NCBI GenBank assembly: GCA_046350615.1
Contig: JAXMAA010000002.1
Span: 149,204 to 213,203 of the forward strand
Reading direction: 5' to 3'
Length of the DNA stretch: 64,000 nucleotides
Source: Candidatus Saccharimonadales bacterium
Lineage (GTDB): Bacteria; Patescibacteriota; Saccharimonadia; Saccharimonadales; UBA7683
The notes beneath the pieces are model-generated. The model was not told where the DNA came from. It did no database searches and was given only the letters and a program-made list of their open reading frames with translations. Positions 1 through 60,959 of the stretch are shown here, piece by piece. Every line of letters starts with the position of its first letter. Within the stretch, counting starts at the first letter, position 1. A program made the position numbers and the translations under genes.

Positions 1-555
1 CCTGCAGAGAAGGAGATTTTGGAAAAAGATACTATACAAGAAGCACCGGTCACCCAGCCATCCCCCGAAAAGATTGTGAAAGTTGCAGAACAACCGATTG
101 TACTGGATGATGATAGCACCAAAGTATCTACTGATGAGGAGGATGATGCCGAGAAGATCACGCTTACTAGTGAGTCCGAAGTGCTACAAGAAATAAAGGA
201 TGATGCCGATACTCCAGCAAGCAATGCTGTCGAGCAACCCGATGCGTCTTCAGATAAAGTCGAAGATACGACAAAAGCGAATGAATCAGATGCTTCGGGA
301 CAGGTTTATGCCAATAATTTAGTGCAATCAAGCAATCCCACCGGATATAAGCCACGCAAAACTCAACCAGCTTTGGCGGTATTTGATGCAGAGGATTACC
401 ACGGCGAGCTTCACGATTGGTCGCACTTGGGGGATCGTCGTGGTCGCCAGTGGTTGTTCCTGGGCGTGCTACTCACTATTTTGCTATTACTCCTAGTTAC
501 AACTATATTTCGACCAAGCTTTTTACCTGCCTGGCTGCATATCCCTATATTTTAA
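1..555 (+). CDS. hypothetical acidic protein with C-terminal TM anchor; probably 5'-partial
   Basis: Track ORF 19..555, but the frame stays open to nt 1. D/E/S-rich body followed by hydrophobic helix WLFLGVLLTILLLLLVTTIF. No family recognised. Confidence 0.4.
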   Translation, partial: PAEKEILEKDTIQEAPVTQPSPEKIVKVAEQPIVLDDDSTKVSTDEEDDAEKITLTSESEVLQEIKDDADTPASNAVEQPDASSDKVEDTTKANESDASGQVYANNLVQSSNPTGYKPRKTQPALAVFDAEDYHGELHDWSHLGDRRGRQWLFLGVLLTILLLLLVTTIFRPSFLPAWLHIPIF

Positions 556-607
556 ATGACAGCCTGAAACTTTAAGCCAACACGAATCTCAAAACTTACG
601 ATCTGTT

Positions 608-686
608 CTGTCATCTTGAGCGCGTCGAAAGATCTGGCTGATCTGCTATGTACTTATTAGATCCTTCGACAAGCTCAGGATGGCAG
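608..686. repeat. palindromic repeat element, intergenic copy (family GTCATCYTGAGC...GCTCAGGATGRC)
   Basis: Arms ctgtcatcttgagcgcgtcgaaagatct (608-635) and agatccttcgacaagctcaggatggcag (659-686) are imperfect reverse complements around a 23-nt loop. Related copies at 5831-5911 and 25146-25214. Confidence 0.8.
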
Positions 687-1154
687 GGGTGGAGTTTCGA
701 AATTCAGTTTTAGACCAACATGGACGGTTGGGCTGATATCTTCTGGTAATGCACTCAGCGGAAACCACCTAACCTCTAAAATTTCGAGGGGACGATTAAT
801 TGCAGGTTCCTTCATCTTCTTTACAGTAGTAGCAAAGAATGAAATGTGGGCAACGGGCCACTTGATGTTTGCGGGCAGCCGTTTCTCGCCAAGAAATTGA
901 AGAGGTTGATGAATTGATACGCCTGTTTCTTCAAGAGTTTCGCGCTTACACGCAGCTTCTGCAGATTCACCCTTTTTGACTCCGCCACCCGGCAGACTCC
1001 ACTTCTGTGTGCCAATGGCGCTCTTGGTAAGAAGAATATGTTGGTTTGATATGGCAATCACTCGAACTCGCCGTGAATTATGAATGAACAATCCTTTGAT
1101 TGGGAGACCAAAGGCATTCAGTAGTTTTGCGCAGCGTGCATAGAATAGCTTCAT
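675..1154 (-). CDS. NUDIX hydrolase
   Basis: Nudix box GGGVKKGESAEAACKRETLEETGV. The stop codon and last 5 codons lie inside the palindromic element. Confidence 0.85.
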   Translation of the reverse strand: MKLFYARCAKLLNAFGLPIKGLFIHNSRRVRVIAISNQHILLTKSAIGTQKWSLPGGGVKKGESAEAACKRETLEETGVSIHQPLQFLGEKRLPANIKWPVAHISFFATTVKKMKEPAINRPLEILEVRWFPLSALPEDISPTVHVGLKLNFETPPLPS

Positions 1155-8112: not shown

Positions 8113-8530
8113 GGGGATGACATAGCTTTAGACGAAGAGACCTTAACAATCTGTACCAGCGTGTTGACTTACGAACATAATTCGTTTTTTAATTGCAAAC
8201 TTTGTTGCATCAGTACGTTCAGCATTCAACGGTGCTGTATCTAGCCTTGCTGCTATGATTCAGTCTCCTGTTGCTGTACGTGCGACAGCTGCCTAATTTT
8301 AGCGTAGCCATCGATCTCTTGACGTCAGATAGAGTCAGATCGGTGTCATATTTATCTGGCTTGGTTGGCTGCGGTTTATCAGCGTAGCTTTCGACATTTC
8401 ACTGATTACGGTTTATTGGTTTTTTGTTTGTTCTTACATCCAATAATTCGTTAAATCTAGAATAAACTACACACGTAGAAGGACAGATGTTACTTTTCGG
8501 ACGCGGGTGCAATACCCGCCATCTCCACCA
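8113..8530 (+). ncRNA. ssrA: tmRNA (transfer-messenger RNA)
   Basis: 5' GGGGATGACATAGCTTTAGACG and 3' GGACGCGGGTGCAATACCCGCCATCTCCACCA (T-arm, acceptor, CCA). Internal tag frame from GCA 8195 to TAA 8294-8296 ends in ..TAA-coded Ala-Ala. Confidence 0.9.
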
Positions 8531-30649: not shown

Positions 30650-33241
<2,592 letters not shown>

Positions 33242-33835
33242 GTGCAGCGCGAGATCGAAGCAAAATTTTTGCGTCAAAATCATAACGAAGTTCGCCAAAA
33301 ATTGCGTAAGCTCGGTGCTATTTGTAAGCATAAGATGGCGCTTATGCGTCGGACGGTCTTTGATTTTCCTGATCGTAGGCTACAAGCTCGTGGCGCATGG
33401 GTTCGTTTGCGCAAAGAGCTTGATGGTTCGATTGAACTCATGGTCAAGCACGTTGCCTCTGAAAAGTTGGGTCAAACATTTGAACATCCCGTTGTTGTTA
33501 CGGATTATGAGGCCGCAAAGCAATTTTTGCTTTCGCTAGCGTTGGAGGTGAAGGGCGAGCAAGAATCAAAGCGTGAGGTGTGGCGGCTTGGTGAGGCTGA
33601 GATTATGCTTGATGAATGGCCATGGGTGCCGCCTTTTATTGAGATCGAGGCACCGTCGGAAGAAATTGTTAGAAATCTTGCGAAACAACTAGGTTTAAAC
33701 TGGGACAAAGCTAAATTTGGTGGAGTTACCCCTGTTTATATGGCCGAATATGCTATAGGAAAAGAAGAATTTGAATCTGCCGAGCTTTCCATGCAATTCG
33801 AGCAGCCGATACCCGCTATTTTAAAGCGTAATTAG
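33242..33835 (+). CDS. CYTH domain protein (class IV adenylyl cyclase/triphosphatase-like)
   Basis: N-terminal EIEAKF (ExExK) motif. The GTG start abuts the obg stop. Confidence 0.65.
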   Translation: MQREIEAKFLRQNHNEVRQKLRKLGAICKHKMALMRRTVFDFPDRRLQARGAWVRLRKELDGSIELMVKHVASEKLGQTFEHPVVVTDYEAAKQFLLSLALEVKGEQESKREVWRLGEAEIMLDEWPWVPPFIEIEAPSEEIVRNLAKQLGLNWDKAKFGGVTPVYMAEYAIGKEEFESAELSMQFEQPIPAILKRN

Positions 33836-33942
33836 GCTTAGGATGACCACCCAAATTGAGCGTATTTTGTTTGGCAAGATTTGCAAATATATTGTGCTTG
33901 TGCTAATAATGCGAAGTTAGATACTCACCAAATATAAAAACT

Positions 33943-35616
33943 ATGTCCATACTGCAACGAATAAAAATTGTTAAAAATCGTACTAACCAAAAAAGAGACA
34001 ACAAAGGAAGGTTTAGTTCGGGTTCTGGCGGTGTTAGGCTTGCTCAAGGCTTCAGTTGGAGGCGCAACATACCAGTAATTATCGTTGTTGCGCTTGTGGG
34101 CGGTTACTTTGTGTGGAGATCCTCAGCAAGTACCACCCCATATGATCACTCGTTAAGAAGTTGTGTCACAGCTCGCATTGCAACAAATACTTTAACTATG
34201 GACTACGCTATGAGTAACCCGCAATGTGCACTATATTCCAACGAGGCTTTTGTGTACCGATTATACCAAGCTGCGACTGGCAAAAACCCGAGCAAGAGCC
34301 AGTATCTTAGCTTGCTTAAAGTTCATCTGATTTACTCAAAGTCTCCAGAAAAGACGGCGCAAGTTGTTGCCGCTCAAATAACTGATCAAGAAGGTGCAGT
34401 TCCTCCGGGCGCGTATGTTCGCAACGCTTCGATAAATGGTTTGGGTTTTGTTGAAGACAAGAACTGGATTGCTCTTAAGACGCATATGCTCGAGACCGGT
34501 AAAGATACCCAAGGGGATATTTTATATGGTTATGTGCGCCAATCTACCTCGGCAAAATTTTTGGAACAAAATTTCAAGAACTACATGAGAACGTTTACGT
34601 TTTCAGAAGTTGATAAAGCAGTGTACCAAGCTAGTTCGGCTGCCGCTACATTAAAACCTTCTTGTGCGCTTTCGGTTACGCTTAGTGACGGTGTCTATAA
34701 GGCAGCTTGGGCAAGCTCCAGCCTTTCACAAACTGATAGATCGCTTCAAGTGCGACTACAGAATAGTGCCAGAGATGAAACGTATAAACTCTCGGCGTTT
34801 GGCGGTTCGCAGACGGTTAAACCAAAACCCGGCATTAAAAACTCCTATACCTTGAACATTATGCGCACCTCAGAGATTATTGCGAGCTGTAGTACCTTTG
34901 TAACGCCACCTGCTGAAACAGTTTCACCTCGAGGTACGTACACTGAATGGAATTGGACCTCCACGGTTCCTTTAACAACATTACAACACAGTCTTGTTGT
35001 TAATGAGGTGAAGACAGACGCGCCGTATTTTTGGTCACATCAATTTGGCTTTAAGGGTGGTGATGGGGGATATGTTGGACTGCAATCGAACGGTTCTCGA
35101 GTTGATGGTACGGTGGGCAAAACAGCAGTGTTTTCAATATTTAGCTCTGGTATGGAGGCATCGCCAGCGAAAGCATGCAAGATTGAGCAAGAAGGATTTG
35201 ATGGGTATGAAACCTCTGGCACGAGTTGTCGCATAACTTATGATTGGCAGCCAGGTCGTAAGTATGATCTTAAAGTTGCGCTGACGGCAAAAGATAACAC
35301 TGGCAACTGGTGGAGCGGTTCGATCAAGGATACGGTTACAAACCAGCAGACACTGATTGCCAAAATAAAAACACCAGTAAAGTGGACGGCCTTCAAAGAT
35401 TGGTCGGTTATGTGGACAGAATATTTTGGCGGACTTCCTGAGACGTGTGCAGATTTGGCATATTCGTCAGTAAACTTTTATCAGCCGTCAGCCAATGGCG
35501 GCGGCATTCAGCCTTCGGGTACTAAAAATGTACTCTCCACGGGTGATAAATGCAATAATTCAAGCATAGCCCCAACAAACTTTGGTTCTACTCAGAAGAT
35601 GGGCACGCAGCGTTAG
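33943..35616 (+). CDS. membrane-anchored secreted hypothetical protein (C-terminal beta-sandwich, possibly DUF3472-like)
   Basis: N-terminal basic region plus TM. The C-terminal region YFWSHQFGFKGGDGGYVGLQSNG recalls DUF3472, from memory only. Confidence 0.55.
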   Translation: MSILQRIKIVKNRTNQKRDNKGRFSSGSGGVRLAQGFSWRRNIPVIIVVALVGGYFVWRSSASTTPYDHSLRSCVTARIATNTLTMDYAMSNPQCALYSNEAFVYRLYQAATGKNPSKSQYLSLLKVHLIYSKSPEKTAQVVAAQITDQEGAVPPGAYVRNASINGLGFVEDKNWIALKTHMLETGKDTQGDILYGYVRQSTSAKFLEQNFKNYMRTFTFSEVDKAVYQASSAAATLKPSCALSVTLSDGVYKAAWASSSLSQTDRSLQVRLQNSARDETYKLSAFGGSQTVKPKPGIKNSYTLNIMRTSEIIASCSTFVTPPAETVSPRGTYTEWNWTSTVPLTTLQHSLVVNEVKTDAPYFWSHQFGFKGGDGGYVGLQSNGSRVDGTVGKTAVFSIFSSGMEASPAKACKIEQEGFDGYETSGTSCRITYDWQPGRKYDLKVALTAKDNTGNWWSGSIKDTVTNQQTLIAKIKTPVKWTAFKDWSVMWTEYFGGLPETCADLAYSSVNFYQPSANGGGIQPSGTKNVLSTGDKCNNSSIAPTNFGSTQKMGTQR

Positions 35617-35637
35617 GTAATTTGTTACAAGTTAAGC

Positions 35638-35665
35638 TTGAAATATCGAGAGGGAAGAGTAAACT
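35638..35665 (+). promoter_or_regulatory. candidate promoter for the structured element
   Basis: TTGAAA (35638-35643), 16-nt spacer, TAAACT (35660-35665). Confidence 0.35.
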
Positions 35666-35712
35666 AAAATACAAGTTACGTGCGCCACGTCTCGGCTGCA
35701 TATAACGCATGT

Positions 35713-36254
35713 TAACAAACTAAACGAGTATGAGTTGAGCACTCGCTCGTCAGGAGTTCTTGCTAATCTGTTTGCATGGATTATCAAGAACTCCTGACTG
35801 AGCGTGTCCTTGCTCAAGAGCAAGGCCTACTTTCAGCTAGGGGTAGCAATATCCGCAAGATGAGGGAGAGCTCATGAGTTTGTTCTCTGGCACCACCACG
35901 CTGGATTGTGAGCCACACTGGCGCACCGCCGGCGAGCTGGCCGCTACCTCCGGGATGATGACCGGAGGTTCTGAGGCGTAGATCGCGCTCTGCGTTCGAA
36001 GCTTCTTTGCCAGCCAAATATCTGATCACCCTCCCGCCGGGTGGGTGATCACTGCGTCAACAGCGACGCCACAAAATGGCGGAGCAGGAAGTGCTGAAAG
36101 TACGGAGGAGTAATATCTTGCGTTCGGACGTCGTAGTTGGGCTAGTTGTTTCGGCGGGGGCCGAGGCACACCAAAAACACCATCCGTCATCAAGAACCCC
36201 TCTAACCTGAAAGCACCCTGCTCCGCCAAGTGGCGAAACTCGTTTAGTTTGTTA
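35713..36254 (+). ncRNA. candidate large structured ncRNA (or ORF-less MITE), unassigned family
   Basis: A perfect 17-bp pairing of the ends, taacaaactaaacgagt (35713-35729) with actcgtttagtttgtta (36238-36254). GC-rich and hairpin-dense, with a long-range 11+5 bp helix 36078-36095/36212-36227. No credible ORF. Strand is tentative. Confidence 0.5.
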
Positions 36255-36267
36255 CTAAACTCCTATG

Positions 36268-36292
36268 TTACCCGAGAGGGTTATTTTTATTT
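36268..36292 (+). terminator. weak terminator-like hairpin after the structured element
   Basis: accc-GAGA-gggt followed by tatttttattt. Confidence 0.3.
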
Positions 36293-36319
36293 GTCAGCAC
36301 GTTATTTATCCGACATACT
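36291..36319 (+). promoter_or_regulatory. promoter of leaderless sbcB
   Basis: TTGTCA, 17-nt spacer, CATACT, then 7 nt to the ATG at 36327. Confidence 0.5.
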
Positions 36320-36326
36320 AGAGCAC

Positions 36327-37757
36327 ATGGCCTTTTATTTTTACGATCTTGAAACCTCAGGAATTAACGCTCGAGCCCAGCGAATAATGCAATTTGCAGG
36401 ACAGCGAACAGATGAGAACTTTCAATCGCTTGGCGAGCCACAAAATTGGCTAGTGAAACTGAGTGATGAGATCCTGCCAGATCCTGACGCAGTACTCATT
36501 ACGGGCATCACTCCGCAGAAAACACTTGAAGAAGGCTATAGTGAGGCGGAGTTTCTGAAGCTGTTTTATAAAGAGGTTTTACAGCCCGATACCATAATTT
36601 GCGGCTTTAATACTATTCGTTTTGATGATGAATTTATGCGCAATACCTTGTGGCGCAATTTTTACGATCCGTATGAATGGCAGTGGCAAGATGGTCGTTC
36701 ACGTTGGGATCTACTGGATGTTGTTCGCATGGTTCGGGCGCTTCGGCCAGATGGTATTACGTGGCCGGTTGATGAAAAAGGCCAACCAACCAACCGGCTC
36801 GAGTTGCTTACAAAGGCTAATGGCCTAGATCACGAGAATGCTCATGACGCACTGAGTGATGTGCGGGCAACAATTGCGGTGGCGCAGCTACTCAAGCAAA
36901 AGCAGCCAAAGATGTTTGAATATCTTCTTTCTGTGCGAATAAAGAAGACAGTACAAATGCTGCTAAATCTCGATGATCCTCAGCCATTTGTATATACATC
37001 TGGCCGTTTTGCAAACGCATGGCAAAAAACGACAGTAGTTGTGCCATTTGCTGAAGGTGAACACGGCGCGGTGCTTGTTTATGATCTGCGGCAAGATCCC
37101 GATCAGTTGGCCAAGCTTGATGATACTGAGTTGAGTCAAAAAGCATTCCAACGTGATTCAGAAACCGAACTGCTCCCGGTGAAGGCGCTGAAAGATAATA
37201 AATGCCCGGCTGTTGCACCACTTGGCGTGTTCGATACGGCATGTCAGAAGCGTCTGCATCTCAGTATGCAAACAGTTGAGGATAACCTGAAAAAGCTACG
37301 CCGTAATCAAGATCTGGTTGATCGCCTGGGGCAGCTTTTTACGAAACGAACTGAGGAGATGAAGGCAAAATTTCCAGCTCATGCAGATCCAGATTTTCAG
37401 CTGTACGATGGGTTCTTGAATGACGCCGACAAGGGGCGGATGAGCGCAGTACGGGCGGCAGATATGGATAGTTTGGTTGATCTAACGCTTGATTTTACAG
37501 ATGAGCGTCTCTCGCAATTGTTGCCTCGGTACAAAGCTCGCAATTTTCCGCGTAGCTTGACGGCATCTGAAAGGAGTGCGTGGGAAGAGTATCGCCGCAA
37601 ACGCTTGGCTCGTGGGGTCGAGGGCCAACTTTCGTTCGAAAAATTTGCTCAGCGGCTTGCCGAGCTAGTCCAGATTAAGGTTAGTGATGAACACGCTCAA
37701 TTTTTGCTTCAAGAACTCCAGCTATACGCCGAAAGTATCGCGCCAGATGAAAGCTAG
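36327..37757 (+). CDS. sbcB: exodeoxyribonuclease I
   Basis: FYFYDLETSG, FNTIRFDDEF, HDALSDVRAT (DEDDh), about 476 aa. Track ORF trimmed to MAFYFYD. Confidence 0.88.
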   Translation: MAFYFYDLETSGINARAQRIMQFAGQRTDENFQSLGEPQNWLVKLSDEILPDPDAVLITGITPQKTLEEGYSEAEFLKLFYKEVLQPDTIICGFNTIRFDDEFMRNTLWRNFYDPYEWQWQDGRSRWDLLDVVRMVRALRPDGITWPVDEKGQPTNRLELLTKANGLDHENAHDALSDVRATIAVAQLLKQKQPKMFEYLLSVRIKKTVQMLLNLDDPQPFVYTSGRFANAWQKTTVVVPFAEGEHGAVLVYDLRQDPDQLAKLDDTELSQKAFQRDSETELLPVKALKDNKCPAVAPLGVFDTACQKRLHLSMQTVEDNLKKLRRNQDLVDRLGQLFTKRTEEMKAKFPAHADPDFQLYDGFLNDADKGRMSAVRAADMDSLVDLTLDFTDERLSQLLPRYKARNFPRSLTASERSAWEEYRRKRLARGVEGQLSFEKFAQRLAELVQIKVSDEHAQFLLQELQLYAESIAPDES

Positions 37758-39737: not shown

Positions 39738-40322
39738 GTGTCAACTGCTTCAGCTGGTGAAGGAATTTACGTTGGTTTTGAGGTAGCCCAAGAGAGGGGG
39801 TTGACCCAGTTTGTTAAGGGTATACCAAGGACTATCGGGGAGCCCGAAGACTTTCGAACACTCAGTATAACAGGTATGTACCCTGAAGAGTTGGCAGAGC
39901 GAGGCCTGGGGCGTCACGAGCGTCGACGACTAACCCCGTTAGTGAGGCACATACAAAGACGCATTTCGCACCTAGCTATAGTGGGCTCTACGGTCGAGCC
40001 CAATCAAGATGAGCTTGTAGCTCATAAAAAATTTGCTGCAATAGCTATAGATCCTAGCGAAGAAATGGTTGATGCGAGGGAAGTTATCAGCGGTCTCGTA
40101 TTGGATGAAATTGGTATCAAACTCCCAAATTATAACCCAAGAGGCTGGCATATATCTGTTGCCAGAAGATCAGGGCGAGGTGAAAAGCTGCCTCCTTACA
40201 GGAGGCCGATTCCGCCAAGTATGGTCGTAAGCGGGATTACGGTTGCTATACGTTCGGCAAAGGGAGACATGGCTAATGTGCGAGACTATGTAAACGTTCC
40301 TAGGCACAGGTGGCAAAGATAA
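39738..40322 (+). CDS. hypothetical protein
   Basis: ORF only. A single HISV motif is insufficient to call a 2H phosphoesterase. Confidence 0.45.
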
Positions 40323-40339
40323 CGTATAATAACCAGGAT

Positions 40340-43145
40340 ATGTCGGAGTTTATTTCTGTTCGTGGTGCACGGGAGCACAATCTAAAAAATGTTGATGTTG
40401 AGATTCCGCGCGAGAAGTTAGTGGTCATTACTGGGCTTTCTGGATCGGGCAAATCATCTTTGGCGTTCGATACTATTTACGCCGAAGGGCAACGACGTTA
40501 TGTGGAAAGCCTTTCAAGTTACGCACGCCAGTTCTTAGGATTAATGGAAAAGCCGGATGTTGATCAAATTGACGGTCTTTCACCAGCAATTTCAATTGAT
40601 CAAAAATCAACCAGCCGCAATCCGCGCTCCACAGTGGCAACGGTAACAGAAATTTACGATTATCTGCGTTTGTTGTTCGCACGTATTGGTGTGCCGCATT
40701 GTCCCATTGATGGCAACGAGGTGCGACGCTTAACGCCGCAGGCAATTGTTGATGAGGTCCTCACCATGGAGCAAGGTGCGCGCGTGATGATTTTGGCTCC
40801 CATTGTTGCAGCAAGGTCAATTCGAGCACATTCCAGGCGAGTATCAGCGAAGCGGTTTTGCTCGAGCTCGAGTTGACGGTGTTGTATATAGTCTTGATGA
40901 ATGGCCTGAACTTGATAAAAAGTTTAAGCACACAATCGAGATCGTGGTCGATCGTTTAACTAATGATGAGGCAAATCAAGGCCGCTTAGCACAATCAATC
41001 GAACAGGCGCTGGAGATTGGTAGAGAAAGCGTTACTGTGCATAACGCCGACACCAAAGAAGATCGTTTGCTCTCACAGCGCTATGCTTGTCCGGATCACC
41101 CCGATCTTGCTCTACCAGAGCTTGAGCCTCGTATTTTTAGCTTCAATGCGCCACAAGGCGCCTGTCCAACCTGTACAGGTTTAGGATCTCGGCTTGAGGT
41201 TGACCCTGAGCTAGTTATTCCAAATGGTAACCTAACTATTGCCGAAGGCGCAATCCGCCCCTTTAACCGGGTGAACGCAGATGCATGGTATATGAAGAAG
41301 ATGCAAGCTGTGGCAGAGAAGCACGGATTTAGTTTGCAGGTCCCAACAGCTCAGTTGAAACAAGATGATCTTGATAAAATTTTGTATGGAACCGGAAATG
41401 AGAAATACACTATTCAGCTTGGAAGTGGGCGTTATTTCGACACAACTTATGAGGGCGTTATTCCAAACCTTGAGCGTCGCCATAAAGAAACCGATAGTGA
41501 TTTTATGCGGCGAGATATCGAACGCTTTATGCGCGAGCGTCCTTGCAATACTTGTAAAGGCGCTCGTCTCAAACCGGAGGTGCTTGCGGTAACGGTCCAT
41601 GGTTCTTCAATCAAAGACATTACCGATCTTTCAGTGAGCGATGCACTTGCATTGCTTCAAAAGACAAAGTTCACAGAGAAAGAACAGTTTATTGTGGCGC
41701 AGGTGAGTAAAGAGATTATTTCACGCCTAACCTTTCTTAACAACGTAGGCCTGAATTATCTCAACTTAAGTCGAAGTGCTGCCACGCTCTCGGGCGGCGA
41801 GGCACAGCGTATTCGTTTGGCAACCCAAATTGGTTCTGGTTTGCAAGGCGTGCTATACGTGCTTGATGAGCCTTCCATTGGCTTGCATCAACGTGATAAC
41901 GATCGCTTGATTACAACACTCAAGCACCTGAGAGATCTCGGCAATTCAGTGCTGGTAGTTGAGCATGATGAAGATACCATTCGCGCGGCCGATTGGCTCA
42001 TAGATATTGGCCCTGGCGCCGGTGTGCATGGAGGCGCGATCGTAGCGGCCGGAACTCCCAGTGCCGTAGCTAAAAATACAGAGAGTATCACAGGGAGATA
42101 CCTGGCGGGTTCTGAAACAATCGGTGTTCCTCAAAAGCGCCGCAAAGGTAACGGCAGAGAACTGGTTATTAAGGGTGCGGCCGAACATAACCTTCAGAAT
42201 GTGAACGTGAGTATTCCTCTCGGTCAACTAGTGGTGGTAAGCGGAGTCTCCGGCTCAGGTAAATCCAGCCTCATCAACGATATTTTGGCAAAAGAGCTAC
42301 AGGCCAGGTTGCACCGCGCGCATTTGGTGCCGGGCAAACACGAAGAGATTCTTGGTATTGAGCATTTAGACAAAGCTATCATCATCGATCAATCGCCGAT
42401 TGGCCGCACACCTCGCTCTAATCCGGCAACCTATACCGGGGTTTTTACGCCAATTCGCGAATTATTTGCTAACACCCCTGAAGCTAATATTCGTGGTTAT
42501 AAAGCTGGACGCTTTAGCTTTAATGTGAAGGGCGGCCGCTGCGAAAATTGCCAAGGCGACGGCATTATCAAAATTGAGATGCACTTTTTGCCAGATGTTT
42601 ACGTTACGTGCGAGGTTTGCAAAGGCCGCCGCTATAACCGCGAGGCATTGGAAATTACCTATAAAGGTAAAAATATCTCCGATGTGCTGAACATGACAAT
42701 CGAGCAAGCGGTGGAGTTTTTTGAAAACCAACCGAGCATCGCCCGTAAGATGCAAACCCTTAATGATGTCGGTCTTGGCTATGTCAAACTTGGCCAACCC
42801 GCCACAACACTCTCTGGCGGTGAAGCGCAGCGTATTAAGTTGGCTGCTGAGCTTTCTCGTCGTGCTACCGGCAAAACACTGTATATCCTGGATGAGCCAA
42901 CCACTGGTCTGCATTCCGCGGATGTCAAAAAACTGCTCGAGGTTTTGAATGCGCTGGTAGATACCGGCAACTCCATGGTCATCATCGAACACAATCTTGA
43001 TGTGATTAAATCAGCCGACTATATTATCGATATGGGTCCAGAAGGCGGTGCTGGCGGTGGTCAAATTATGGCCGAAGGCACGCCAGAGCAAATCGCCAAA
43101 GTCAAAGCTTCCCATACTGGAAAATACTTGACAAGTATGTTATAA
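40340..43145 (+). pseudogene. uvrA: excinuclease ABC subunit A, one frameshift near 40804-40810
   Basis: [27 protein letters not shown] in the first frame. ..[24 protein letters not shown] onward is in the second frame (track ORFs 40310-40876 and 40803-43145). TATAAT at 40325-40330 precedes the ATG at 40340. Confidence 0.9.
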
Positions 43146-60872: not shown

Positions 60873-60959
60873 GCGCGAGTGGCGGAATTGGTAGACGCGC
60901 TAGCTTCAGGTGCTAGTGTACGCAAGTACGTGGAGGTTCAAGTCCTCTCTCGCGCACCA
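60873..60959 (+). tRNA. tRNA-Leu (anticodon CAG), CCA encoded
   Basis: Cloverleaf folded by hand: acceptor gcgcgag/ctcgcgc, anticodon loop ttCAGgt, long variable arm gtacgcaagtac, T-arm ggaggttcaagtcctct, ACCA. Confidence 0.9.

What the first reader, a model, noticed from the sequence alone, without database searches (positions are those of the whole stretch)
35638..36295. 542-nt GC-rich, ORF-less, hairpin-dense element closed by a perfect 17-bp terminal helix: candidate novel large ncRNA (or MITE)
A 710-nt gap lies between gene 33943..35616 and leaderless sbcB. No frame there looks coding: the three minus ORFs tile it in three different frames and are P/G/R/A-rich nonsense.

The ends taacaaactaaacgagt (35713-35729) and actcgtttagtttgtta (36238-36254) are perfect reverse complements 508 nt apart, like a closing P1 helix. 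Inside are:
- A 19-bp hairpin, 35744-35762/35785-35804.
- ccttgc..gcaagg, 35808-35825.
- acctccgg-gatgatga-ccggaggt, 35946-35969.
- tgatcaccc..gggtgatca, 35023+1000 corrected to 36023-36051.
- gcgtc..gacgc, 36054-36069.
- A long-range helix ggcggagcagg+gtgct (36078-36095) with agcac+cctgctccgcc (36212-36227), bordered on both inner sides by the heptamer CTGAAAG.

A promoter-like TTGAAA-N16-TAAACT (35638-35665) precedes the element, and a GNRA-capped hairpin plus T-tract (36268-36292) follows it. I could not match it to RNase P, SRP, 6S, tmRNA or common riboswitch cores. Its size and GC contrast resemble the large ornate bacterial RNAs (OLE/ROOL/GOLLD class).
Basis: partly seen in the sequence, partly recalled or inferred. 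Interest (0 to 1): 0.75.

Follow-up and report, generated by a model that had tools for sequence, protein, structure and literature searches.

The report
New structured RNA gene in Saccharibacteria
The gap upstream of the exonuclease I gene holds a separately transcribed, heavily folded RNA of about 620 bases. It matches no described RNA family, recurs in only five other Saccharibacteria genomes with base-pairing kept by compensating mutations, and carries a small conserved reading frame inside.

Summary

**What it is**
- It is not a MITE. There is one copy in the window, no dispersed copies, and no target-site duplication.
- Conservation runs beyond the 17-bp repeats on both sides.
- Five homologues were found in Saccharimonadales metagenome-assembled genomes (MAGs): L002, L006, L003, L219 and L220. 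All lie in the hypervariable obg–sbcB interval. About 90 related loci lack it.
- No Rfam 15 family matches any copy.

**Evidence for a functional RNA**
- The closing helix P1, the 26-bp hairpin and the helix closing the 3' domain all change sequence between copies yet stay paired.
- In the six-sequence 5' domain, 94.6% of cells are paired and 21 of 43 pairs changed on both sides (0 of 500 shuffles reach this).
- G·U outnumbers A·C 26 to 2, which places the RNA on the + strand.
- A promoter-like site and a terminator hairpin flank every copy.
- Against L002, the ends are 92–97% identical and the centre about 57%. Neutral sites are 54–63% identical.

- All six copies keep an SD-preceded ORF of 28–40 codons. 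The peptide itself is not conserved.

**Best reading**
A new family of fold-back-closed structured RNA with a probably translated small ORF. Its function is unknown.

The parts
35638..35665 (+). Promoter-like site TTGAAA-16-TAAACT. The transcription start is inferred at about 35672.
   Evidence: Promoter scan. A -10-like hexamer sits at the same column in all copies: TAAACT (window, L002), TAGACT (L006), TAAAGT (L003, L220), TATAGT (L219). Identical between window and L002 although neutral sites differ by 37-46%.
35675..35706 (+). P0, the 5' leader hairpin (GUUACGUGCGCC ... GGCUGCAUAUAAC). The core GCGC / GCAGC is nearly invariant.
   Evidence: Alifold helix 1: 11 pairs, 91% of cells paired in six sequences, 2 pairs with changes on both sides. 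Coordinates.
35713..35729 (+). P1 5' arm (UAACAAACUAAACGAGU) of the closing, fold-back helix.
   Evidence: Perfect 17 bp with 36238-36254. Arm pairs in the other copies: L006 TAACAAACTGAACGAGT / ACTCGTTCAGTTTGTTA; L003 TAACAGTAGAGTAAT / ATTACTCTACTGTTA; L219 TAACAATAGAGT / ACTCTATTGTTA; L220 AACAAAATGAACAAAC / GTTTGTTCATTTGTT. All are paired.
35744..35805 (+). HpA, a long near-perfect hairpin of about 26 bp.
   Evidence: I1. In six sequences, 17 of 26 pairs changed on both sides and 95.8% of cells are paired. Several G·U pairs are invariant in type B copies.
35808..35825 (+). HpB, a small hairpin CCUUGCUC-AA-GAGCAAGG. It is shared with L002 and weakly with L006. Alifold offers an alternative pairing of its 5' strand with UGAGCA, which lies about 35734-35739.
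   Evidence: (I15).
35862..35868 (+). SD-like GAGGGAG, 5 nt upstream of the small ORF's ATG. It lies in a local hairpin with the first codons.
   Evidence: GGAG/GGAGG/AAGG-type motifs stand upstream of the start in all six copies. The pairs of the local hairpin covary in window, L002 and L006 (columns 258-281).
35874..35981 (+). Small ORF of 35 codons, MSLFSGTTTLDCEPHWRTAGELAATSGMMTGGSEA. It sits in the fast-evolving centre of the element.
   Evidence: An ORF with an SD is kept at the equivalent place in all six copies, at 35/39/33/28/28/40 codons. The chance per sequence is 0.07-0.17. Its length differs from L002's by 12 nt, and MAFFT places in-frame indels of 3 and 9 nt there. The stop is kept as TGA to TAA between L003 and L219. 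The peptide is hydrophilic, has no Pfam match, and is not conserved.
35946..35969 (+). Hairpin ACCUCCGG-GAUGAUGA-CCGGAGGU inside the ORF's 3' part.
   Evidence: I17. L002's changes break two of its pairs. Four of the five differences in the last 12 codons (including the stop) are third-position synonymous changes.
36023..36069 (+). Two hairpins, 36023-36051 and 36054-36069. They are shared with L002. Other copies carry unrelated hairpins at this place.
   Evidence: (I3).
36078..36227 (+). 3' domain. It is closed by helix L1 (GGCGGAGCAGG 36078-36088 with CCUGCUCCGCC 36217-36227), extended by GUGCU 36091-36095 with AGCAC 36212-36216, and has an apical hairpin at 36149-36166. Conserved motifs: ACACCAAA, CGUCAUCAA, AAAGCACCC.
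   Evidence: L1 changes sequence but stays paired: GGGGTGGAGTGG / CCGCTCCACCCC (L006) and GGACCGCATAGGGT / ACCCTATGCGGTCC (L003). L219 and L220 show equivalent helices. Alifold on types A and B. Model R3 places L003's L1 correctly. The apical hairpin has a UUCG loop in L006 and L003.
36238..36254 (+). P1 3' arm (ACUCGUUUAGUUUGUUA).
36242..36260 (+). Alternative local hairpin, mutually exclusive with P1. GUUUAGU (part of the P1 3' arm) pairs with ACUAAAC at 36254-36260, a copy of part of the P1 5' arm.
   Evidence: (D2). In L006 all three partners changed together (ACUGAAC / GUUCAGU / ACUGAAC). The hairpin is absent from type B copies.
36268..36292 (+). Intrinsic-terminator-like hairpin (ACCC-GAGA-GGGU) plus T-run. 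The T-run overlaps the -35 box of the sbcB promoter.
   Evidence: Equivalent + strand terminator hairpins follow the P1 3' arm in L006, L003, L219 and L220, each with a different stem sequence. The T-runs of L219 and L220 are interrupted.
36291..36329 (+). sbcB promoter-like site TTGTCA-17-CATACT and the leaderless sbcB start (ATG at 36327). This is the neighbour, not part of the RNA.
   Evidence: identical hexamers in L006. (RNase_T plus Exonuc_X-T_C domains).

Best explanation
The interval 35638-36292 is a stand-alone + strand gene for a highly structured RNA of about 620 nt. It belongs to a previously undescribed family that is confined, so far, to a few Saccharimonadales genomes, where it sits as accessory cargo in the hypervariable obg–sbcB interval.

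**Shown**
- A promoter-like site is followed by a 5' hairpin (P0).
- A 12-17-bp helix (P1) joins the 5' end of the body to its 3' end.
- Inside P1 lie a 26-bp hairpin, a fast-evolving centre, and a conserved 3' domain closed by a second long helix.
- A terminator-like hairpin follows P1 directly.
- These helices are kept by compensatory change.
- The two ends evolve far more slowly than neutral sites.
- The centre keeps an SD-preceded ORF of 28-40 codons whose peptide is not conserved.

**Inferred mechanism**
- The conserved 5' and 3' domains are the functional RNA, acting as a binding or scaffold surface.
- P1 can form only once the whole RNA has been made. It then locks the transcript into a compact fold-back form.
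- Translation of the small ORF, or the switch between P1 and the alternative 3' hairpin, opens or remodels that fold. This resembles the 5'-3' long-distance interaction of type I toxin mRNAs and the dual-function RNAs that carry a small ORF.
- The cellular target is unknown.
For: **No known family**
- Rfam 15 gives nothing, at gathering scores or at E<=10, for the window, L003 or L006.

**Homologues**
- L002 and L006 were found by nhmmer.
- L003, L219 and L220 were found by covariance models.

**Covariation**
- The six-sequence 5' domain has 94.6% of cells paired against 77.5% in shuffles. 21 of 43 pairs changed on both sides. 0 of 500 shuffles reach this, and slid controls pair at only 35-40%.
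- P1 and L1 have different sequences in each lineage and are fully paired.
- Type A has 24 and type B has 32 pairs with changes on both sides.

**Strand**
- 26 G·U cells against 2 A·C cells.
- + strand promoter-like sites and + strand terminator hairpins.
- Terminator-containing sRNA models hit the + strand only.

**Selection**
- Window versus L002: 97% identity over 35617-35736, about 57% over 35797-35946, and about 92% over 36007-36300.
- Four-fold degenerate sites in the flanking genes differ by 37-46%.

**Independence from neighbours**
- The upstream gene is DUF3472, CYTH or obg. The downstream gene is sbcB or p94. A terminator and a separate promoter lie between the RNA and the downstream gene.

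**Small ORF**
-.

**Switch**
-.

**Precedent for fold-back locking**
- PMC6733600.
Against: - There are only six copies, all from MAGs or metagenome contigs, falling into four or so independent lineages. No formal covariation test of the R-scape type could be run.
- Two of the alignments were fitted to the model, which favours pairing.
- There are no expression data. Promoter and terminator calls are consensus matches. The window's terminator stem has only 4 pairs, and the T-runs of L219 and L220 are interrupted.
- Folding energy does not separate the strands: + is better in the window and L002, - is slightly better in L006 and L003.
- The conserved small ORF means it could be mainly an mRNA.
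- Signals on the peptide conflict. Changes at the window/L002 3' end of the ORF are synonymous, but 6 of 7 sense-codon changes between L003 and L219 are non-synonymous.
- The very patchy distribution also fits a selfish or neutral cassette spread by recombination. L191, a close relative of L006, lacks the element.
- No function or partner has been identified.
Confidence: 0.62

Rival explanations
1. It is mainly an mRNA for a small protein. The long structured UTRs and the 5'-3' fold-back keep the primary transcript untranslatable until it is processed, as in type I toxin-antitoxin loci (hok, aapA).
For: - An SD-preceded ORF of 28-40 codons is kept in all six copies. The joint chance is about 1e-3 to 1e-4.
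- The SD and start lie in a covarying local hairpin.
- A 5'-3' closing helix and a mutually exclusive 3' hairpin are present.
- The location is accessory and patchy.
- The precedent is described in PMC6733600.
Against: - The peptides are hydrophilic, with GRAVY -0.1 to -1.2 and no hydrophobic stretch, and are not alignable across lineages.
- The amino-terminal two-thirds evolves at the neutral rate between window and L002.
- 6 of 7 sense-codon changes between L003 and L219 are non-synonymous, while the nucleotides are 91% conserved.
- No minus-strand promoter for an antitoxin RNA was found in the window.
- The UTR-like domains are far better conserved than the ORF.
Confidence: 0.2
2. It is a cis-acting transcription unit whose role is to control the promoter just downstream (sbcB, or p94-p190). 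It would act by promoter occlusion or insulation, or as a long attenuator leader.
For: - It always lies directly upstream of, and in the same direction as, a promoter.
- In the window, L002 and L006 the terminator's T-run overlaps the -35 box TTGTCA of the leaderless sbcB.
- That junction is conserved between the window and L006 although neutral sites are saturated.
Against: - Downstream genes differ between copies, and most genomes run sbcB without the element.
- 500 nt of covarying structure is far more than occlusion needs.
- In L003, L219 and L220 the next promoter is 30-290 nt beyond the terminator stem (about 46, 32 and 290 nt).
Confidence: 0.08
3. It is a mobile or rearranging DNA element: a MITE bounded by 17-bp terminal inverted repeats, or an invertible segment (inverton) flipped by a recombinase.
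For: - Perfect 17-bp inverted repeats lie 508 nt apart.
- Presence is patchy, even between close relatives.
- Both arms changed together in L006, which gene conversion between repeats could also produce.
Against: - There is one copy in 64 kb.
- The 106 metagenome hits to the terminus are single-arm chance matches with no further similarity. Viral, phage and plasmid collections gave nothing.
- Flanking bases are not duplicated: ...GCATGT on the left, CTAAAC... on the right.
- Conservation runs 60 nt beyond the left repeat and to the terminator beyond the right one.
- All six copies lie in the same slot and the same orientation.
- No transposase or recombinase lies within about 10 kb in the window.
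- Internal helices covary, and G·U pairs point to one strand.
Confidence: 0.04
4. It is a decaying remnant, such as a pseudogene or fossil insertion, with no present function.
For: - The central 150 nt evolves at the neutral rate.
- Six-frame translations have no protein homologues.
Against: - The ends are 92-97% identical where neutral sites are 54-63% identical.
- Blocks are conserved between lineages whose synonymous sites are saturated.
- Helices are maintained by compensatory change.
Confidence: 0.02

Closest known systems
Large ornate bacterial RNAs of unknown function (OLE, ROOL, GOLLD; Rfam; PMC12286853)
   Same: - Size of about 0.55-0.6 kb and many helices, with GC above the genome average.
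- Own transcription unit and no obligatory protein partner next to it.
- Patchy, accessory distribution.
   Different: - No covariance-model match to any of them, even at E<=10.
- Much narrower distribution: six contigs of one order.
- Contains a conserved SD-preceded small ORF and a closing 5'-3' helix with an alternative 3' hairpin.
- Conserved nucleotides are concentrated at the two ends, while the centre is free to vary.
Fold-back-locked type I toxin mRNAs (hok/Sok, aapA/IsoA; PMC6733600, PMC8594479)
   Same: - A small ORF whose SD lies in a local hairpin.
- A long-distance 5'-3' interaction that can form only after the 3' end is made.
- A competing local structure.
- Accessory and patchy loci.
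   Different: - The peptide is hydrophilic and unconserved.
- No antisense RNA promoter was found.
- The transcript is 1.5-3 times longer, and its non-coding domains are better conserved than the ORF.
Dual-function regulatory RNAs that carry a small ORF, such as Staphylococcus RNAIII with hld (514 nt; from my own knowledge)
   Same: - About 0.5 kb with many hairpins and long-range helices that close domains.
- An embedded small ORF.
- Own promoter and terminator.
   Different: - No sequence or model similarity.
- No sign of a quorum-sensing context.
- The target-binding loops are unknown.
rRNA-type processing stalks (long helices between 5' leader and 3' trailer cut by RNase III; from my own knowledge)
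   Same: - A helix of up to 17 bp (12-17 bp among the copies), formed by sequences flanking a structured RNA body and lying between a leader hairpin and the terminator, is the geometry of an RNase III processing stalk.
   Different: - The body is not an rRNA (no Rfam match).
- Processing has not been tested.

Membership tests
Any Rfam 15 family (including OLE, ROOL, GOLLD, raiA, HEARO, RNase P, 6S, SRP, tmRNA, group I/II introns, riboswitches) | Covariance-model score at or above the family's gathering threshold | tested here: not met
   There is no match in 35300-36700 at gathering scores or at E<=10. The only hits are microRNA-precursor and other weak chance hits, the microRNA ones on the long hairpin. 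The same holds for the L003 and L006 copies.
MITE | Terminal inverted repeats | tested here: met
   Perfect 17-bp inverted repeat.
MITE | Multiple dispersed copies in the genome or in related genomes | tested here: not met
   There is a single copy in the 64-kb window. Metagenome hits to the terminus are single-arm chance matches. All six copies sit in the same obg–sbcB slot. The rest of the genome could not be searched.
MITE | Target-site duplication flanking the repeats | tested here: not met
   The flanks are ...GCATGT | element | CTAAACTC... in the window, with no direct repeat. Conservation continues outside the repeats.
Type I toxin-antitoxin (toxin mRNA) | Small ORF with an SD sequestered in mRNA structure, plus a 5'-3' long-distance interaction | tested here: met
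   Sequestration is predicted, not probed.
Type I toxin-antitoxin (toxin mRNA) | Hydrophobic, membrane-active toxin peptide | tested here: not met
   GRAVY is -0.11 to -1.20. The best 15-residue window scores at most 0.33, against about 2.6-3.1 for Hok, TisB and Fst (those comparison sequences are from my memory).
Type I toxin-antitoxin (toxin mRNA) | Antisense RNA antitoxin with its own promoter | tested here: inconclusive
   The window has no minus-strand promoter-like site in 35500-36450. L003 has one beyond the terminator. A consensus scan cannot exclude weak promoters.
Inverton (invertible DNA switch) | Inverted repeats flanking a segment found in both orientations, with a site-specific recombinase | tested here: not met
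   All six copies have the same orientation. No recombinase lies among the neighbours. Read-level data could not be examined.
Riboswitch or attenuator leader | Lies in the 5' UTR of, and is co-inherited with, the regulated gene | tested here: not met
   A terminator and a separate promoter precede the downstream gene. The downstream gene differs between copies (sbcB or p94). Most sbcB genes lack the element.

The most novel reading that the evidence does not exclude
This is the founding member of a new class of roughly 0.6-kb ornate RNA, specific to Saccharimonadales (candidate phyla radiation).
- It would be an accessory, horizontally exchanged RNA gene.
- Its conserved 5' and 3' domains would form a fold-back-closed particle.
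- Translation of a sequence-free small ORF would gate its activity.
- In one subtype it would work with two otherwise unknown proteins (p94 and p190), which occur only beside it.
- That combination suggests an RNA-centred accessory module, possibly for defence or host interaction.
Probability: 0.4. Interest if true: 0.8.

Novelty: new variant of a known kind. Interest (0 to 1): 0.62.

Why it matters
- Large structured bacterial RNAs without a known function are rare, and each new class has repaid study.
- None has been described for Saccharibacteria. These ultra-small epibionts have genomes with little room for non-essential sequence.
- Here about 0.6 kb of non-protein sequence is held under stronger constraint than the neighbouring genes.
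- The element combines three features: a fold-back closing helix, a possible structural switch at the 3' end, and a small ORF that is kept open although its peptide is free to vary.
- That combination makes a concrete, testable case of translation-gated RNA folding outside the toxin-antitoxin world.
- The association of one subtype with two orphan proteins offers a handle on function.
- If it proves to be a neutral cassette, it still marks the obg–sbcB interval as a recombination hot spot in this lineage.

Tried and rejected
**Known families and collections**
- Rfam at gathering and permissive thresholds on three copies gave nothing.
- blastn in 'distant' mode against phage and plasmid collections gave no match.

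**Searches with sequence motifs**
- An exact-pattern scan of metagenome contigs with the 17-nt terminus gave 106 single-arm hits. None resembled the element by nhmmer. In hindsight a less specific, two-anchor pattern would have been better, because the arms differ in type B copies.
- Viral-contig scans with the terminus and with the leader motif gave nothing or only motif-length chance hits.

**Protein-based routes**
- A concatenate of the six-frame ORF translations, searched against 5.8 billion predicted proteins to catch spurious gene calls over homologues, gave no hit at E<=10.
- Look-ups of sbcB relatives (P0043, P0027, P0033, P0030, P0008, P0014, P0059) found no element, only other cargo in the slot.
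- The window's own sbcB could not be looked up.

**Methods that failed or were uninformative**
- nhmmer missed the type B copies. Only the covariance model found them.
- Model R3 (3' domain of type A) does not detect type B with default filters, and only weakly with filters off.
- MAFFT misaligns the 3' domain of L003. mafft-qinsi is not installed.
- Folding energy as a strand test was uninformative.

**Ideas considered and dropped**
- I considered RNase P, a tRNA carrying a group I intron (prompted by PMC13011429), an ORF-less group II intron, a retron or DRT ncRNA, and a second tmRNA. None has a model match, the hallmark sequences are absent, no reverse transcriptase lies nearby, and a bona fide tmRNA is at 8113-8530.

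**The type B partner protein p190**
- The p190 structure prediction had mean pLDDT 41, too poor for a fold search.
- A PDB profile search, Pfam and PADLOC gave nothing.
Full report
**1. The observation**

- The 17-nt inverted repeat 35713-35729 / 36238-36254 is perfect. No other site in the 64-kb window comes within 3 mismatches; chance expectation is 0.21.
- The long hairpin, the four smaller hairpins, the long-range helix 36077-36088 / 36217-36228 and its flanking CTGAAAG repeats are all found.
- The promoter-like TTGAAA-16-TAAACT is reported by the consensus scan.
- The GAGA-capped hairpin with a T-run is visible, but its 4-bp stem is below the scanner's threshold.
- The core folds at -255 kcal/mol, z = -10.4. 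The opposite strand folds nearly as well, z = -10.2.
- GC peaks at 0.60-0.61, against 0.46 for the window.

**2. Context**

The window comes from a Saccharibacteria (Saccharimonadales) genome.
- The gene order is obg, CYTH, a DUF3472 protein, the element, then leaderless sbcB (exonuclease I). A small membrane protein, pheA and uvrA follow.
- No transposase or recombinase lies nearby.

**3. It matches nothing described**

- Rfam 15 finds only a tmRNA and a tRNA elsewhere in the window.
- Even at E<=10 the region gives only weak chance hits, among them microRNA precursors on the long hairpin.
- The homologues in L003 and L006 behave the same way.
- Phage and plasmid collections have no similar DNA.
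- Literature searches found no description of a large structured RNA in this phylum.

**4. Homologues**

Among 80 sbcB loci from one genome per species, nhmmer found the element upstream of sbcB in two.
- L002 is 80% identical in the element, and its sbcB protein is 91% identical.
- L006 is very diverged, with a sbcB protein 67-69% identical.

A covariance model of the 5' domain then found a copy that nhmmer had missed, in L003 (40 bits, E 1.7e-7).

Using L003's neighbouring orphan protein as an anchor gave two more copies, in L219 and L220 (51 and 58 bits).

That makes six copies of two subtypes.
- Type A: window, L002 and L006.
- Type B: L003, L219 and L220.

All six lie between obg and sbcB.
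- About 90 other Saccharibacteria loci have nothing.
- In those loci the same interval holds CYTH alone, a photolyase-like gene, an EamA transporter or small orphan genes.
- L191 lacks the element, although its sbcB differs from L006's at only 14% of four-fold degenerate sites.
- The slot is therefore hypervariable and the element is accessory cargo. It is either lost often or exchanged by recombination.

**5. It is not a MITE or an inverton**

- There is one copy in the window.
- The metagenome scan with the terminus returned 106 single-arm hits, about the chance number I had estimated. None showed further similarity.
- Viral contigs gave nothing.
- There is no target-site duplication.
- Conservation extends 60 nt to the left of the left repeat, and through the terminator on the right.
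- All six copies have the same orientation.

**6. It is a structured RNA made from the + strand**

*Covariation*
- In the six-sequence alignment of the 5' domain, 94.6% of cells are paired against 77.5% in shuffles. 21 of 43 pairs changed on both sides. 0 of 500 shuffles reach this, and sliding the partner columns drops pairing to 35-40% (four-sequence version).
- The 26-bp hairpin has 17 pairs that changed on both sides.
- The closing helix P1 reads as follows. All versions are paired; the L220 version carries one bulged A.

| Copy | 5' arm | 3' arm |
|---|---|---|
| window, L002 | TAACAAACTAAACGAGT | ACTCGTTTAGTTTGTTA |
| L006 | TAACAAACTGAACGAGT | ACTCGTTCAGTTTGTTA |
| L003 | TAACAGTAGAGTAAT | ATTACTCTACTGTTA |
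| L219 | TAACAATAGAGT | ACTCTATTGTTA |
| L220 | AACAAAATGAACAAAC | GTTTGTTCATTTGTT |

- The helix closing the 3' domain (L1) is GGCGGAGCAGG in the window, GGGGTGGAGTGG in L006 and GGACCGCATAGGGT in L003, each with its own complement.
- Full-length alifold gives 24 pairs (type A) and 32 pairs (type B) with compensatory change.
- Caveat: the model-derived alignments lean towards the structure, and six sequences are few.

*Strand*
- Helices hold 26 G·U cells and 2 A·C cells. Several G·U pairs are invariant in type B. These would be mismatches on the other strand.
- A -10-like hexamer sits at the same place in all copies. It is preceded by TTGAAA, TTGCAT or TTGTAA at 16 nt in the window, L003 and L219 (read; only the window's passes the scan). 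L219 keeps the promoter position while the surrounding sequence differs.
- Each copy has a + strand hairpin with a T-rich tail 8-14 nt after the P1 3' arm, and the stem sequences differ.

*Selection*
- Window and L002 differ at 37-46% of four-fold degenerate sites in the flanking genes.
- The first 120 nt of the gap are 97% identical and the last 300 nt about 92%. Positions 35797-35946 are about 57% identical, which is the neutral rate.

**7.

*A small ORF*
- The variable centre contains a + strand ORF at 35874-35981 (35 codons), with GAGGGAG 5 nt upstream.
- An SD-preceded ORF sits at the equivalent place in every copy, at 39, 33, 28, 28 and 40 codons. In L006, L003 and L219 it is the only such ORF on the + strand.
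- Dinucleotide shuffles of the central region produce such an ORF in 7-17% of trials per sequence. That gives a joint chance of about 1e-3 to 1e-4 over three or four independent lineages.
- Its length differs from L002's by 12 nt, and MAFFT places in-frame indels of 3 and 9 nt there.
- Four of the five differences in the last 12 codons (including the stop) are third-position synonymous changes.
- The stop codon changes from TGA to TAA between L003 and L219.
- Against a functional peptide:
  - the sequences cannot be aligned across lineages;
  - they are hydrophilic;
  - they have no family match;
  - 6 of 7 sense-codon changes between L003 and L219 are non-synonymous, although the nucleotides are 91% identical where neutral sites are about 76% identical.
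- I conclude that the open frame and its initiation signals are probably selected, but the peptide is not.

*A possible switch*
- In type A copies the P1 3' arm can instead pair with a downstream copy of part of the 5' arm (36242-36248 with 36254-36260).
- In L006 all three partners changed together.
- Type B copies lack this hairpin.

**8. Mechanism (inferred)**

- P1 can form only after the last 20 nt of the body are transcribed, just before the terminator. It would close the RNA into a compact form.
- The small ORF's SD lies in a covarying local hairpin.
- This is the logic of the 5'-3' long-distance interaction that keeps type I toxin mRNAs inert until they are processed (PMC6733600).
- Here, however, the peptide is not toxin-like and the conserved parts are the non-coding domains.
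- My best reading is a functional RNA whose fold is gated by translation or by processing at P1. A 17-bp helix between a leader hairpin and a terminator also has the geometry of an RNase III stalk.
- What it binds is unknown.

**9. A lead from type B**

- In L003, L219 and L220 the element is followed, after its terminator and a conserved TTGACA promoter, by two orphan genes, p94 and p190.
- p190 has only four clusters among 5.8 billion proteins.
- Both proteins occur nowhere else in the loci held here.
- Neither has a Pfam, PADLOC or PDB match.
- The structure model was too poor to use, at pLDDT 41.
- p190 carries an H-x-D ... H pattern. I note this only as a lead.

**10. Verdict**

- This is a real, selected, structured RNA gene of an undescribed family, narrowly distributed, with an embedded small ORF. 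Its function is unknown.
- Confidence that it is a functional + strand structured RNA is about 0.6-0.8.
- Confidence in the gating mechanism is about 0.3.

Noticed in passing
window 40310-43145: uvrA appears split into two overlapping ORFs in different frames, 40310-40876 and 40803-43145. Relatives carry a single 936-residue UvrA (L192, L194). This could be a frameshift, a pseudogene or an assembly error.
   Followed up: partly
window 31886-36326 and loci L001-L008, L187-L197, L219, L220: The obg–sbcB interval is a hypervariable slot in Saccharimonadales. Its contents differ from genome to genome:
- CYTH alone;
- CYTH plus a 146-aa orphan;
- CYTH plus a photolyase-like gene;
- a 99-aa Tricorn_N-like gene;
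- EamA;
- CYTH plus DUF3472 plus the RNA;
- the RNA plus p94 and p190.

The breakpoint on the right is exactly the sbcB start codon in the L006/L191 pair.
   Followed up: partly
L003 3554-4462; L219 4122-5035; L220 4665-5588: Two orphan proteins, p94 and p190, occur only beside the type B copies of the RNA.
- p190 has four clusters in 5.8 billion proteins and an H-x-D...H pattern (WHIDR ... VPHRGST).
- p94 of L220 is 96% identical to L003's, while p190 is only 66% identical, which points to mosaic recombination.
   Followed up: partly
L002/L192 12-1628: An IS1595-family transposase gene (12-830, minus strand) lies next to a DUF3472 gene cut down to 202 residues. The window has the full 557-residue gene (33943-35616).
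   Followed up: no
window 8113-8530 and 60873-60956: A full-length tmRNA (82.5 bits) and a tRNA were found by Rfam. The tmRNA rules out the idea that the element is the genome's tmRNA.
   Followed up: yes
window 36291-36329; L006 4965-5003: sbcB appears leaderless. TTGTCA-17-CATACT ends 7 nt before the ATG, and there is no SD. The -35 box overlaps the T-run of the RNA's terminator.
   Followed up: partly
window 31545-31885 and 1493-1795: Two further gaps of at least 300 nt, free of long ORFs, have above-average GC (0.53 and 0.50). They were not examined and may hold short ribosomal-protein genes or other RNAs.
   Followed up: no
L003 2700-2810: Between obg and the type B element lie two strong hairpins, TCCTCTGG...CCAGAGGA and CAGCCTGCCCGTCTGA...CAGACAGGCGGG...CTGAG. 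Their role is unknown; they may be terminators of obg.
   Followed up: no
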